From assembly GCF_045037415.1 (NCBI RefSeq), contig NZ_CP173438.1: 64,000 nt of DNA; one strand, written 5' to 3'. The stretch comes from Escherichia coli. GTDB taxonomy: Bacteria; Pseudomonadota; Gammaproteobacteria; Enterobacterales; Enterobacteriaceae. This document shows positions 4,001-7,000 of the stretch, piece by piece; the first letter of the stretch is position 1; every line of letters starts with the position of its first letter. The position numbers are program-made.

Positions 4001-7000
4001 GCGGGCGTGGGGCTGGGGTTGAATCTGCCTCTCGGGCCATTAATGGCGACCGTTGGCGGAAAAGGCGTTTACACCAACCCGAACGATGGTGATGAAGGTT
4101 ATGCAGCGGCAGTTGGCGGTGGTTTGCAGTGGCAAATTGGTGACAGCTTCCGCTTGTTTGGTGAGTATTACTACTCTCCGGATTCGCTCTCCAGCGGAAT
4201 TAAAAGTTATGAAGAAGCGAATGCTGGCGCGCGTTACACCATTATGCGTCCAGTCAGCATTGAGGCTGGCTACCGTTACCTGAACCTGGCAGGTAAAAAT
4301 GGCAATCGTGATAACGCCATTGCTGATGGTCCGTATGTTGGGGTAAATGCCAGCTTCTGACGCCTTCCGGCGCGGCGTTCTGTCGCGCCATTCAGTTTCT
4401 TACTACGCCCTGTCTCCCTTTGCGTTATAGTGATTCGATAACAAAAGCAGGAGATAACCATGTTAAAAGTGGAAATGTTATCCACCGGGGATGAAGTGTT
4501 ACACGGGCAAATCGTTGACACTAACGCTGCCTGGCTGGCCGATTTTTTCTTTCATCAGGGGCTGCCATTATCTCGCCGCAATACGGTGGGGGATAACCTT
4601 GATGACTTAGTCACCATTCTTCGCGAACGTAGTCAGCACGCCGATGTGTTGATCGTTAACGGCGGGCTGGGACCGACCAGTGATGATTTAAGCGCACTCG
4701 CCGCTGCGACAGCAAAAGGTGAAGGCCTGGTGCTGCATGAAGCCTGGCTCAAAGAGATGGAACGCTATTTCCATGAACGGGGACGAGTAATGGCACCGAG
4801 CAACCGTAAACAAGCGGAGCTGCCTGCCAGTGCTGAATTTATCAATAACCCGGTAGGCACTGCCTGTGGTTTTGCCATACAGCTTAATCGTTGCCTGATG
4901 TTCTTTACCCCCGGCGTACCGTCAGAATTTAAGGTGATGGTCGAGCACGAAATCCTGCCGCGCCTGCGCGAGCGTTTTTCTTTACCACAGCCGCCGGTTT
5001 GCCTGCGTTTGACTACCTTTGGTCGTTCGGAAAGCGATCTGGCACAAAGCCTGGACACTCTACAACTGCCGCCGGGCGTAACAATGGGCTATCGCTCCTC
5101 AATGCCGATTATCGAACTGAAACTCACCGGACCGGCAAGCGAGGAACAGGCGATGGAAAAACTGTGGCTGGACGTTAAACGTGTTGCCGGACAGAGCGTG
5201 ATTTTCGAAGGCACCGAAGGACTGCCCGCGCAGATCAGTCGCGAATTGCAGAGCCGCCAGTTCAGCCTGACGCTGAGCGAGCAATTCACCGGTGGTTTAT
5301 TGGCTTTGCAACTTTCTCGCGCAGGTGCTCCATTGCTGGCGTGTGAAGTGGTTCCTTCACAGGAGGAAACCCTGGCGCAAACTGCGCACTGGATTACAGA
5401 ACGGCGGGCGAACCATTTTGCTGGGTTGGCACTGGCTGTTTCTGGTCTGGAAGATGAGCATCTCAACTTTGCACTAGCCACGCCAGACGGCACTTTCGCT
5501 TTGCGTGTACATTTCAGTGCCACACGCTACAGTCTGGCTATTCGCCAGGAAGTGTGCGCAATGATGGCGCTTAATATGCTACGCCGTTGGTTAAACGGCC
5601 AGGACATCGCCAGCGAGCATGGCTGGATTGAGGTTGTTGAGTCCATGACCTTATCTGTCTGATTCCGCCACTCTGTGCCGGTTTACTGCACCGGCACATT
5701 CCCCCTCCGGCAAAATTTGTCCAACCTGTTGTACTCAATAAGAAAAAATCCGTGCGCTGATTCACAAATTTGTGCGTAATTTCTCCAGTCCGCTGGACGA
5801 GAAACGGGATTTGATGCGCTTCACAATTTTACTCCCCCTGAACAACGAGACTGATTCCAGTATCTAAGACTGGAGTCCAGTATGTTGGAATCAAGCAAAG
5901 TTCCCGCCCTGACACGGGCTATTGATATTCTCAATTTGATTGCCCGGATTGGCCCCTGTAGTGCTGCGACGATCATTGACACATTGGGGATCCCTAAAAG
6001 CACAGCCTATTTGCTGCTTAATGAACTCAGGCGTCAGCGTTTTCTTAGCCTTGATCACCAGGAAAATTTTTGTTTGTGGACCAGGCTGGTGGAGCTTTCC
6101 GGTCATGCGTTAAGCAAGATGGATCTCCGGGAACTGGCTCGACCGCGTTTGACGCAACTGATGGATACCACCGGGCTGTTATGTCACCTGGGGATTATTG
6201 ATAACGGCAGCGCTTATTACATTTTGAAAGTGGAGTCATCAGCCACTATCAGCGTGCGTTCCCATGAAGGAAAAAGCCTTTCGCTTTATCGCTCCGGAAT
6301 AGGTAAATGCCTGCTTGCCTGGCAACCTGCAGCTGTACAGCAAAGTATTATCGAAGGGCTGGTCTGGGAACGGGCGACACCCACAACGATTACTCATCCA
6401 CAACGGCTCTACGAAGAACTGGCGCGTATTCGCCGCCAGGGCTGGAGCTATGACAACGGCGAAGATTACGCCGATGTCCGTTGTGTCGCTGCGCCGGTGT
6501 TTAACGCCAATAACGAGCTTACCGCTGCGATTTCGGTGGTCGGTACCCGCTTACAAATCAATGAAGAATACCGTGATTATCTGGCGGGCAAGGCCATTGC
6601 CTGTGCCAGGGATATTTCACGTTTGTTGGGATGGAAAAGTCCCTTTGACTTACAGGCCTCATAACAATGGAGAACATCATGACCCTACCAAAAATCAAAC
6701 AGGTTCGCGCCTGGTTTACTGGCGGTGCGACAGCAGAAAAAGGCGCTGGCGGCGGTGATTATCACGACCAGGGGGCGAATCACTGGATTGATGATCATAT
6801 TGCCACCCCGATGAGTAAATACCGCGAATACGAGCAGTCCCGCCAGTCATTTGGCATTAACGTTCTTGGCACGTTGATTGTTGAAGTTGAAGCAGAAAAC
6901 GGCCAGACCGGATTCGCTGTTTCGACAGCCGGTGAAATGGGCTGTTTTATTGTCGAAAAACATCTTAACCGTTTCATTGAGGGTAAATGCGTCAGTGATA

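What the first reader, a model, noticed from the sequence alone, without database searches (positions are those of the whole stretch)
5851..5884. Palindrome and direct repeat overlapping the rhmR start: candidate autoregulatory operator
ACTGGAGTCCAGT is a perfect 13-bp palindrome ending at the rhmR ATG, and CCAGTAT occurs twice 17 bp apart (gattCCAGTATctaagactggagtCCAGTATg). IclR-family regulators commonly bind palindromes overlapping their own promoter. The structure is seen directly; the function is inferred.
Basis: inference. Interest (0 to 1): 0.3.

Follow-up and report, generated by a model that had tools for sequence, protein, structure and literature searches.

The report
Predicted RhmR operator over rhmR start
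The short palindrome at the start of the E. coli rhmR gene is a by-product of a longer, deeply conserved pair of repressor-binding boxes that was already predicted in the literature, so this is an ordinary, though untested, case of a sugar-acid operon switched by its own regulator.

Summary
The sequence is as described. ACTGGAgTCCAGT lies at 5869-5881 and ends at the rhmR ATG (5882). CCAGTAT occurs at 5857 and 5877, but 20 bp start-to-start, not 17. A palindrome of this kind is no rarer than chance (21 in the window against 17.6±3.2 expected). Its symmetry is not maintained in 44 orthologous loci.

What is conserved is a 14-18 bp box, (A)GTCCA-N6-TGGA(AT):
- O3 (5874-5891) spans the Shine-Dalgarno edge, the ATG and codons 2-4, whose synonymous sites are invariant.
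- O2 (5854-5871) is a degenerate copy exactly 20 bp upstream.
- O1 (5782-5799) and OA (5718-5735) lie further upstream, interleaved with two CRP-like sites.

O3, O1 and OA are the three sites already predicted for b2248 by Suvorova & Gelfand 2021 (PMC8222616). The likely mechanism is an RhmR tetramer on O2/O3 blocking a CRP-dependent promoter. RhmR binding has never been tested. An mRNA hairpin reading is weaker but not excluded.

Verdict: the function and location are partly supported, the proposed anatomy is wrong, and novelty is low.

The parts
5718..5735 (.). Box OA, TGTCCAACCTGTTGTACT (core TCCA-N6-TGTA). It is the distal predicted RhmR site, centred about -132.5 from the inferred TSS.
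   Evidence: Conserved block in 39 aligned upstream regions, and a perfect palindrome AGTACAACCGGTTGTACT in Pantoea L032. It ranks 3rd of about 64,000 window positions with a matrix that was not trained on it. Listed as the -163 site for b2248 in PMC8222616 Suppl. Table 2.
5751..5766 (.). CRP-like site 1, CGTGC-N6-TCACA (centre 5758.5, about -100.5).
   Evidence: Two mismatches to TGTGA-N6-TCACA. At most 2 mismatches in 35 of 44 loci, and a perfect match in Tolumonas and Prodigiosinella. CRP genomic SELEX lists yfaX as a target (PMC3105977).
5782..5799 (.). Box O1, TCTCCAGTCCGCTGGACG (core TCCA-N6-TGGA). Predicted RhmR site between the two CRP-like sites, centre about -68.5.
   Evidence: Exact TCCA-N6-TGGA. 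The exact core is present at this position in 33 of 45 loci, including Vibrio, Tolumonas and L044. Listed as the -99 site for b2248 in PMC8222616.
5810..5825 (.). CRP-like site 2, TTTGA-N6-TCACA (centre 5817.5). This is -41.5 from the inferred TSS, the class II position.
   Evidence: One mismatch to the consensus. At most 2 mismatches at a fixed offset in 39 of 44 loci. Absent from L041-L043, which have canonical sigma-70 promoters instead.
5847..5852 (+). Inferred -10 hexamer GAGACT. The inferred transcription start is near A5859.
   Evidence: A at position 2 and T at position 6 are invariant. The hexamer at this offset is AACACT or CACACT in enterics, and AATAAT in Vibrio, Tolumonas and L044. 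L041 and L042 have TTGCAA-17-TATACT and TTTACA-17-TATATC ending 3 nt before the TTCCA of O2. L043 has TTGACA-17-TAAATT, whose -10 hexamer ends 10 nt before O2's TCCA core. The TSS itself is inferred, not measured.
5854..5871 (.). Box O2, ATTCCAGTATCTAAGACT. Degenerate tandem box (TCCA-N6-AAGA), 20 bp upstream of O3, covering the inferred TSS.
   Evidence: TCCA (or TCTA) and the GA at box positions 13-14 are kept at a fixed 20-bp offset in all 44 loci that could be scored. It matches O3 at 13 of 18 positions. Matrix rank is 60 of 63,981. It is not in the published site list.
5872..5875 (+). Shine-Dalgarno GGAG of rhmR, 6 nt before the ATG.
   Evidence: Read directly. Invariant or nearly so in 36 species.
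5869..5881 (.). It is made of the last base of O2's right half, two variable bases, the SD and the left half of O3.
   Evidence: Perfect in only 17 of 44 loci, with 3-4 mismatches in distant orthologs. No covariation: 402 to 465 of 500 shuffles do as well.
5874..5891 (.). Box O3, AGTCCAGTATGTTGGAAT (core TCCA-N6-TGGA, 5876-5889). Predicted main RhmR site, spanning the ATG and codons 2-4.
   Evidence: Top matrix hit in the 64-kb window. The exact core is present in 43 of 45 loci. Synonymous sites of TTG GAA TCA are invariant in 36 of 36 species. The box stays fixed while the start codon moves: ATT-TTG in Vibrio and L044, ATA-ATG in L041 and L043. Listed as the -7 site for b2248 in PMC8222616.
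5852..5893 (.). 42-bp imperfect dyad, TGATTCCAGTAT ... ATGTTGGAATCA (outer halves of O2 and O3, centre 5872.5). It is also a potential mRNA stem.
   Evidence: 8-nt perfect inverted repeat (I5). Predicted RNA fold is -15.3 kcal/mol, z = -3.05. 94.7% of cells are paired across 36 distinct sequences.
5882..6664 (+). rhmR (yfaX), IclR-family regulator, 260 aa.
   Evidence: HTH_IclR and IclR_C domains. Annotated yfaX in E. coli genomes.
6667..10051 (+). rhmD (6667-7884), rhmT (7902-9230) and rhmA (9248-10051). These are the structural genes transcribed with rhmR.
   Evidence: ORFs. Pfam families MR_MLE, MFS_1 and HpcH_HpaI. The same gene order is found in all distant loci.

Best explanation
The finding sits inside the operator array of the rhmRDTA operon.

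Recognition unit. The unit is an 18-bp box, (A)GTCCA-N6-TGGA(AT), with half-sites one helical turn apart. Box O3 (5874-5891) spans the ATG. Box O2 (5854-5871) is a degenerate copy two helical turns upstream and covers the inferred transcription start.

Mechanism (inferred). Without inducer, an RhmR tetramer (a dimer of dimers) occupies O2 and O3. This blocks RNA polymerase at a weak, CRP-dependent class II promoter: -10 GAGACT at 5847-5852, CRP site centred at -41.5. The result is repression of rhmR and the three catabolic genes. Boxes O1 (about -68.5) and OA (about -132.5), interleaved with a second CRP-like site, probably add cooperative binding or looping, or interfere with CRP. A sugar-acid effector would release RhmR. 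It could be L-rhamnonate or L-lyxonate, or, by analogy with XynR and YjhI, the 2-keto-3-deoxy product.

The 13-bp palindrome is an incidental juxtaposition of the end of O2, the GGAG ribosome-binding site and the left half of O3. The CCAGTAT direct repeat is the left halves of O2 and O3.

Shown versus inferred. Shown: the boxes, their conservation, their spacing and their match to a published prediction. Inferred: the TSS, the role of CRP at this promoter, that RhmR is the binding protein, the tetramer, repression, and the effector.
For: 1. Conservation. 5848-5863 and 5868-5893 are nearly invariant in 36-39 species of Enterobacterales, next to a freely varying fixed-length stretch (5828-5847).
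2. Coding constraint. Third positions of codons 2-4 are invariant in 36 of 36 species, whereas third positions of codons 7-15 vary.
3. Distant orthologs. Seven rhmRDTA operons (56-75% identical RhmR) all keep O2 and O3 20 bp apart. The box stays fixed while the start codon shifts.
4. Enrichment. Exact TCCA-N6-TGGA occurs 77 times in 300 kb of loci against 4.6 expected, and 76 of those are at O1 or O3. In the window there are 3 hits against 0.95 expected, two of them in this spacer.
5. Independent box. A matrix trained on non-Escherichia O1 and O3 sites ranks O3, O1 and the untrained OA as 1, 2 and 3 of about 64,000 positions.
6. Published prediction. PMC8222616 independently lists exactly OA, O1 and O3 for b2248. 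It also reports that IclR-family sites commonly occur as tandem palindromes 18-22 nt apart, with centres peaking at -22 and at -3 to +1 from the gene start. O2 and O3 are centred at -19.5 and +0.5.
7. Promoter. L041 and L042 carry near-consensus sigma-70 promoters ending 3 nt before O2, and L043's -10 hexamer ends 10 nt before O2's TCCA core. AATAAT sits at the equivalent position in Vibrio, Tolumonas and L044.
8. Regulator and CRP. RhmR has HTH_IclR and IclR_C domains. CRP genomic SELEX lists yfaX as a target.
Against: - No experiment shows that RhmR binds here. No RhmR operator study was found in the searchable literature.
- For the paralogs XynR and YjhI, a 2026 paper says the binding consensus is still uncharacterised.
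- O2 is weak. It has only a left half-site plus GA, ranks 60th with the matrix, and is absent from the published list.
- The TSS is inferred, and the E. coli -10 hexamer (GAGACT) is poor.
- Conservation of GGAG and of TGGAA is partly explained by ribosome binding and by coding.
- The loci are phylogenetically related, so the counts overstate the number of independent observations.
- The outer arms also form a predicted mRNA hairpin, so part of the constraint could act on the RNA.
Confidence: 0.7

Rival explanations
1. An mRNA leader hairpin is the functional unit. UGAUUCCAGUAU (5852-5863) pairs with AUGUUGGAAUCA (5882-5893), and an inner stem is formed by the reader's palindrome. This buries the Shine-Dalgarno sequence and the AUG, so translation of rhmR is controlled at the RNA level.
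For: - The predicted fold is -15.3 kcal/mol with z = -3.05, and 0 of 200 shuffles fold as well.
- Similar folds with z below -2.5 are predicted in many orthologs, including Vibrio, Tolumonas, L041 and L042.
- The outer stem is 94.7% paired across 36 distinct sequences, with 4 pairs showing a double change (0 of 500 shuffles reach that).
- The two positions where the DNA arms differ in E. coli (5860/5885 and 5861/5884) are G·U wobble pairs in RNA.
Against: - The covariation score equals the shuffled mean (0.090 against 0.090). Each double change is seen in a single sequence.
- The fold is weak in L027, L028, L032 and L043 (z from -0.6 to -1.5), although their boxes are intact.
- The inner stem shows no covariation.
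- The same motif recurs at O1 and OA, upstream of the promoter, where an RNA role is impossible.
- With the inferred TSS near 5859, seven of the twelve 5'-arm bases would not be transcribed.
- Any dyad-symmetric operator automatically yields such complementarity.
- No Rfam family matches.
Confidence: 0.12
2. One reading: the 13-bp palindrome ACTGGAgTCCAGT is itself the site bound by an RhmR dimer.
For: - It is a perfect palindrome next to the ATG.
- The exact pattern is unique in the window.
- Its TGGA-N-TCCA layout loosely recalls the 7-1-7 IclR box (my own recollection, not tested).
Against: - It is perfect in only 17 of 44 loci. There is 1 mismatch in most Klebsiella, Raoultella and Trabulsiella loci, and 3-4 in the distant orthologs.
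- Columns 5870 and 5871 vary while their partners do not. 9 and 11 of 36 cells are unpaired at those two pairs, and there is no excess over shuffles.
- Palindromes of this type occur at the chance rate.
- Its half-site spacing (7 bp) differs from the 10 bp of O1, OA and O3.
- Its invariant core, GGAG, is the ribosome-binding site.
Confidence: 0.06
3. The conserved boxes bind a regulator other than RhmR, for example a global sugar-acid or carbon regulator.
For: RhmR binding is untested. The region also carries CRP-like sites and was picked up in CRP and RpoN genomic SELEX screens.
Against: - The boxes travel with rhmR in every operon examined. That includes metagenomic contigs with different promoters and no CRP sites. 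RhmR is the only regulator gene found next to the operon in every locus examined.
- The motif, spacing and position fit IclR-family norms.
- The motif has no other strong intergenic hit in the 64-kb window.
Confidence: 0.05

Closest known systems
The predicted YfaX/RhmR regulog (group represented by SSO_2309; includes b2248, STM2292, Tola_1174) in Suvorova & Gelfand 2021, PMC8222616, Suppl. Table 2
   Same: The three 18-bp sites are identical to those found here. They are at -163, -99 and -7, with spacings of 64 and 92 bp, which correspond to OA, O1 and O3.
   Different: That work is computational only. It does not list the degenerate tandem box O2. It does not describe the promoter and CRP layout, the overlap with the SD and start codon, or the shifting start codon.
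TtgV operator of Pseudomonas putida (IclR family; tetramer on a long operator; structure 2XRO as cited in PMC8222616)
   Same: Two adjacent dimer sites are occupied by one tetramer over roughly 40 bp overlapping the promoter. This is the proposed architecture for O2 and O3 (5852-5893, 42 bp).
   Different: The recognition sequence and the effector class differ. TtgV binding is shown by a crystal structure and footprinting, whereas RhmR binding is only inferred. The operator length of TtgV is from my own recollection.
XynR (YagI) and YjhI, the E. coli xylonate-operon IclR regulators and paralogs of RhmR
   Same: The operon logic is the same: an IclR regulator with a dehydratase, an MFS transporter and an aldolase for a sugar acid. 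Their effector is the 2-keto-3-deoxy acid (PMC13279387, title), which suggests the analogous effector for RhmR.
   Different: Their DNA consensus is stated to be uncharacterised, so no motif comparison is possible. The gene order also differs.
Class II and tandem CRP-dependent promoters of enteric catabolic operons
   Same: A CRP-like site lies 41.5 bp upstream of the inferred TSS in place of a -35 element. A second site lies about 59 bp further upstream, and a specific regulator's box sits between them.
   Different: The TSS is not mapped. CRP dependence of rhmR is supported only by a genomic SELEX listing and by conservation.

Membership tests
IclR-family operator (palindromic boxes, often tandem, bound by dimers or tetramers) | The adjacent cognate regulator carries an IclR-type HTH domain and an IclR effector domain. 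| tested here: met
   HTH_IclR (E = 4.5e-9) and IclR_C (E = 5e-62) in the 5882-6661 product.
IclR-family operator (palindromic boxes, often tandem, bound by dimers or tetramers) | A palindromic box of about 15-18 bp with half-sites about one helical turn apart, resembling a family consensus (GTNCG-N5-6-CGNAC type). | tested here: met
GTCCA-N6-TGGAC-like boxes at O3, O1 and OA. The consensus is quoted in PMC8222616.
IclR-family operator (palindromic boxes, often tandem, bound by dimers or tetramers) | Tandem sites with centres 18-22 bp apart, allowing tetramer binding on one DNA face. | tested here: met
   The O2 and O3 centres are 20 bp apart in all 44 loci that could be scored. Caveat: O2 is degenerate.
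IclR-family operator (palindromic boxes, often tandem, bound by dimers or tetramers) | The motif is conserved upstream of orthologous regulator or operon genes in many genomes. | tested here: met
   45 loci, including 7 distant ones. Independently reported in PMC8222616.
IclR-family operator (palindromic boxes, often tandem, bound by dimers or tetramers) | The regulator physically binds the site and is released (or its binding changed) by its effector. | not testable with these tools
   No EMSA, footprint, ChIP or SELEX data for RhmR were found.
cis-acting mRNA leader hairpin occluding the SD and start codon | A thermodynamically stable structure, beyond shuffled controls, in all orthologs. 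| tested here: inconclusive
   z = -3.05 in E. coli. Across 14 orthologs z ranges from -0.6 to -5.9.
cis-acting mRNA leader hairpin occluding the SD and start codon | Compensatory base changes that keep the pairing. | tested here: inconclusive
   Outer stem: 4 double changes, each in a single sequence, and a covariation score equal to the shuffled mean. Inner stems: none beyond shuffles.
cis-acting mRNA leader hairpin occluding the SD and start codon | Both arms lie within the transcript. | not testable with these tools
   The TSS is not mapped. The inferred TSS (about 5859) would exclude 5852-5858.
Class II CRP-dependent promoter | A CRP consensus site centred at -41.5 from the TSS that replaces the -35 element. 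| tested here: inconclusive
   TTTGA-N6-TCACA is centred 29.5 bp upstream of the first base of the inferred -10 hexamer and is conserved in 39 of 44 loci. The TSS is inferred only. CRP SELEX lists yfaX.

The most novel reading that the evidence does not exclude
The 42-bp element might work at two levels. As DNA it would be the tandem RhmR operator. As RNA, if transcription starts a few bases upstream of 5852, the same dyad would fold into a 12-bp stem that buries the SD and AUG. In that case residual transcripts would also be translationally silenced. The first three codons of rhmR would be shaped by operator and stem constraints rather than by protein function. That would fit the start codon having moved three times while the box stayed fixed.
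Probability: 0.15. Interest if true: 0.45.

Novelty: already known. Interest (0 to 1): 0.2.

Why it matters
RhmR is one of the E. coli transcription factors with no experimentally defined binding site. This analysis gives precise targets for mutagenesis and footprinting: the TCCA/TGGA cores of O3 and O2 rather than the eye-catching palindrome. It also gives a promoter model with CRP at -41.5 and a TSS near 5859.

It illustrates two general points. A visually striking palindrome can be a by-product of a neighbouring operator half-site and a ribosome-binding site. An operator can also constrain the first codons of its own regulator gene.

None of this changes current understanding of IclR-family regulation. 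The three main sites were already predicted in 2021.

Tried and rejected
- Sigma-70 consensus scan of 5400-6100: no promoter found. The promoter was inferred from orthologs instead.
- Sigma-54 promoter, prompted by the RpoN SELEX peak: nothing convincing on the + strand. The only GG-N10-GC element is antisense, at 5909-5894.
- CACAAATTTGTG (5763-5774), a perfect 12-bp palindrome, as a candidate operator: rejected. Only its TCACA half is conserved, and that half is part of CRP-like site 1.
- Hairpin GAUUCCAGU/ACUGGAGUC (5853-5861 with 5869-5877) sequestering the SD: no covariation, and 8-11 of 36 cells are unpaired at three pairs.
- Rfam scan of 5600-6000 at E ≤ 1: no match.
- Literature searches for an RhmR/YfaX operator, or for a motif of the paralogs XynR, YjhI or SL1344_3500: no experimental site.
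- The RhmR named in PMC3870299 is an unrelated LacI-family protein of Chloroflexus.
- The matrix hit at 53939 lies inside a long ORF and was treated as chance.
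Full report
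**Locus.** The window is E. coli, with 100% identity to strain SK1144 over 5400-6700. The gene order is:
- yfaY, 4460-5662
- a 219-bp spacer
- rhmR/yfaX, 5882-6664
- rhmD, 6667-7884
- rhmT, 7902-9230
- rhmA, 9248-10051

All are on the + strand. Pfam confirms an IclR regulator (HTH_IclR plus IclR_C), an enolase-superfamily dehydratase, an MFS transporter and an HpcH/HpaI aldolase. The rhm genes are separated by 2, 17 and 17 bp, so the spacer upstream of rhmR is the only promoter region for the operon.

**Observation.**
- ACTGGA-G-TCCAGT is at 5869-5881 and ends just before the ATG.
- CCAGTAT occurs at 5857-5863 and 5877-5883. The spacing is 20 bp start-to-start, with 13 bp between the copies, not 17 as written.
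- GGAG at 5872-5875, inside the palindrome, is the Shine-Dalgarno sequence.
- Neither feature is unusual by itself. There are 21 perfect 6+1+6 palindromes in the window against 17.6 ± 3.2 in Markov resamples. There are 226 close 7-mer repeats against 106 ± 16.

**Conservation.** One scan of representative genomes returned 38 orthologous loci from Escherichia, Citrobacter, Klebsiella, Raoultella, Kluyvera, Trabulsiella, Kosakonia, Phytobacter, Atlantibacter, Mixta, Cedecea, Pantoea, Prodigiosinella and others.
- In the alignment, 5848-5863 and 5868-5893 are nearly invariant. The stretch 5828-5847 has a fixed length but a variable sequence.
- The third positions of codons 2-4 (TTG GAA TCA) are invariant in 36 of 36 species. 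The third positions of codons 7-15 vary freely. The element therefore extends about 12 nt into the coding sequence.
C5870 becomes T in 12 of 36 species, and T5871 becomes C or A in 5 of 36.

**The real repeat unit.** The spacer contains a recurring box, TCCA-N6-TGGA.
- O1: 5784-5797, TCCAgtccgcTGGA.
- O3: 5876-5889, TCCAgtatgtTGGA, across the ATG.
- OA: 5720-5733, TCCAacctgtTGTA, a one-mismatch copy.
- O2: 5856-5869, TCCAgtatctAAGA, a degenerate copy exactly 20 bp upstream of O3.

Statistics for the box:
- The exact pattern occurs 3 times in the window against 0.95 expected, and two of the three are in this spacer.
- Across 300 kb of fetched loci it occurs 77 times against 4.6 expected, and 76 of those are at the O1 or O3 position.
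- A weight matrix trained only on non-Escherichia O1 and O3 sites ranks O3, O1 and the untrained OA first, second and third of about 64,000 window positions. O2 ranks 60th.

**Distant orthologs.** Seven further rhmR-rhmD-rhmT-rhmA operons were fetched:
- Tolumonas auensis (75% identical RhmR)
- Vibrio mangrovi (65%)
- five metagenomic contigs (56-59%; taxonomy not determined)

What they show:
- All keep O2 and O3 20 bp apart.
- The box is fixed while the start codon moves. Enterics have ATG TTG GAA. Vibrio and L044 have ATT TTG GAA with a TTG start. L041, L043 and L045 have ATA ATG GAA.
- L041 has the promoter TTGCAA-17-TATACT and L042 has TTTACA-17-TATATC, each ending 3 nt before the TTCCA of O2. 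L043 has TTGACA-17-TAAATT, whose -10 hexamer ends 10 nt before O2's TCCA core.
- At the equivalent position Vibrio, Tolumonas and L044 have AATAAT. Enterics have AACACT or CACACT, and E. coli has GAGACT at 5847-5852.

This places the -10 element at 5847-5852 and the transcription start near 5859. Both placements are inferred. O2 would then cover +1, and O3 would cover the ribosome-binding site and the start codon.

**CRP.** Two CRP-like sites are conserved in the gammaproteobacterial loci. They are absent from L041-L043, which have good -35 elements.
- CGTGC-N6-TCACA at 5751-5766.
- TTTGA-N6-TCACA at 5810-5825. It has at most 2 mismatches at a fixed offset in 39 of 44 loci.

The second site is centred 41.5 bp upstream of the inferred start, which is the class II position. 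CRP genomic SELEX lists yfaX among its predicted targets (PMC3105977). O1 lies between the two CRP-like sites and OA lies upstream of both.

**Literature.**
- No experimental RhmR operator was found.
- For the paralogs XynR and YjhI, a 2026 paper states that the consensus is uncharacterised.
- The comparative-genomics study of the IclR family (PMC8222616) lists three sites for b2248: -163 TGTCCAaCCtGTTGTACT, -99 TcTCCAGtCtGcTGgACg and -7 aGTCCAGtatGTTGgAaT. Their spacings are 64 and 92 bp. These are exactly OA, O1 and O3. It lists the same sites for Salmonella, Citrobacter rodentium, Klebsiella and Tolumonas.
- The same paper reports that more than half of the IclR orthologous groups it studied have tandem palindromes 18-22 nt apart, which it interprets as tetramer binding. 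It also reports that site centres peak at -22 and at -3 to +1 from the gene start. O2 and O3 are centred at -19.5 and +0.5.

**RNA alternative.**
- The outer halves of O2 and O3 form a 12-bp stem in a predicted mRNA fold (5852-5863 with 5882-5893). The fold is -15.3 kcal/mol with z = -3.05.
- Across 36 distinct sequences the outer stem is 94.7% paired, with four single-sequence double changes. The covariation score equals the shuffled mean.
- The inner stem and the 5853-5861/5869-5877 alternative show nothing beyond shuffles.
- Folding is weak in L027, L028, L032 and L043, although their boxes are intact.
- The motif recurs upstream of the promoter, at O1 and OA.
- The inferred start would leave most of the 5' arm untranscribed.
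- Rfam has no match.

An RNA contribution is therefore possible but secondary.

**Conclusion.**
- The palindrome is the end of O2, the SD and the left half of O3.
- The direct repeat is the real 20-bp tandem periodicity.
- The best-supported mechanism is repression of a CRP-dependent promoter by an RhmR tetramer on O2/O3, helped by O1 and OA, and relieved by a sugar-acid effector. RhmR binding, the tetramer, the TSS and the effector are all inferred.
- The three main sites are already in the literature as predictions, so novelty is low. The additions here are the degenerate tandem site, the promoter and CRP layout, the conservation in distant orthologs with a migrating start codon, and the demonstration that the palindrome is incidental.

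Noticed in passing
window 5674-5698: There is a perfect 9-bp inverted repeat, TGTGCCGGT / ACCGGCACA, with a 7-nt loop. It starts 12 nt after the yfaY stop codon and has no T-run. It is conserved only within Escherichia and is probably the yfaY transcript end or a stabilising hairpin.
   Followed up: partly
Outside Escherichia only its TCACA half is conserved, and that half belongs to CRP-like site 1.
   Followed up: yes
window 53936-53955: GTGTCCAGATAGGTGGACAT is the fourth-best match to the RhmR box matrix and is a near-perfect palindrome. It lies inside an 890-aa ORF on the minus strand (51664-54336), so it is probably chance.
   Followed up: partly
window 5663-5881 (yfaY-rhmR spacer) and 5894-5909, minus strand: A published RpoN genomic SELEX lists a 34% peak in the yfaX-yfaY spacer (PMC8743547). 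No sigma-54 promoter-like element is seen on the + strand. The only GG-N10-GC element, GGGCGGGAACTTTGCT, is antisense within the first codons of rhmR.
   Followed up: partly
E. coli genomes; loci L036, L037, L038; proteins P0025, P0057, P0066: The rhm locus appears to be decaying in parts of Escherichia and Shigella.
- Only 3833 of 5418 genomes hold at least 80% of the 5400-6700 query.
- In some genomes yfaY is directly next to the aldolase gene or to a short HTH fragment.
- Three Escherichia species match only the first 23-63 residues of RhmR, yet keep the O2/O3 element.
- Truncated Shigella proteins and an RhmR-RhmD fusion-like protein are on record.
   Followed up: no
L044 2950-3001 and L040 3001: The gene call in L044 (244 aa) starts 51 nt too far downstream. 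The conserved N-terminus (L/M)ESSKVP is encoded from a TTG that sits in the O3 box. Vibrio mangrovi uses the same TTG start.
   Followed up: partly
between rhmR and rhmD in E. coli K-12 (literature coordinates 2359315-2359334): A motif-finding paper lists a degenerate LexA-like site assigned to yfaX/yfaW from ChIP-chip data (PMC3542263). It was not located in the window or examined.
   Followed up: no
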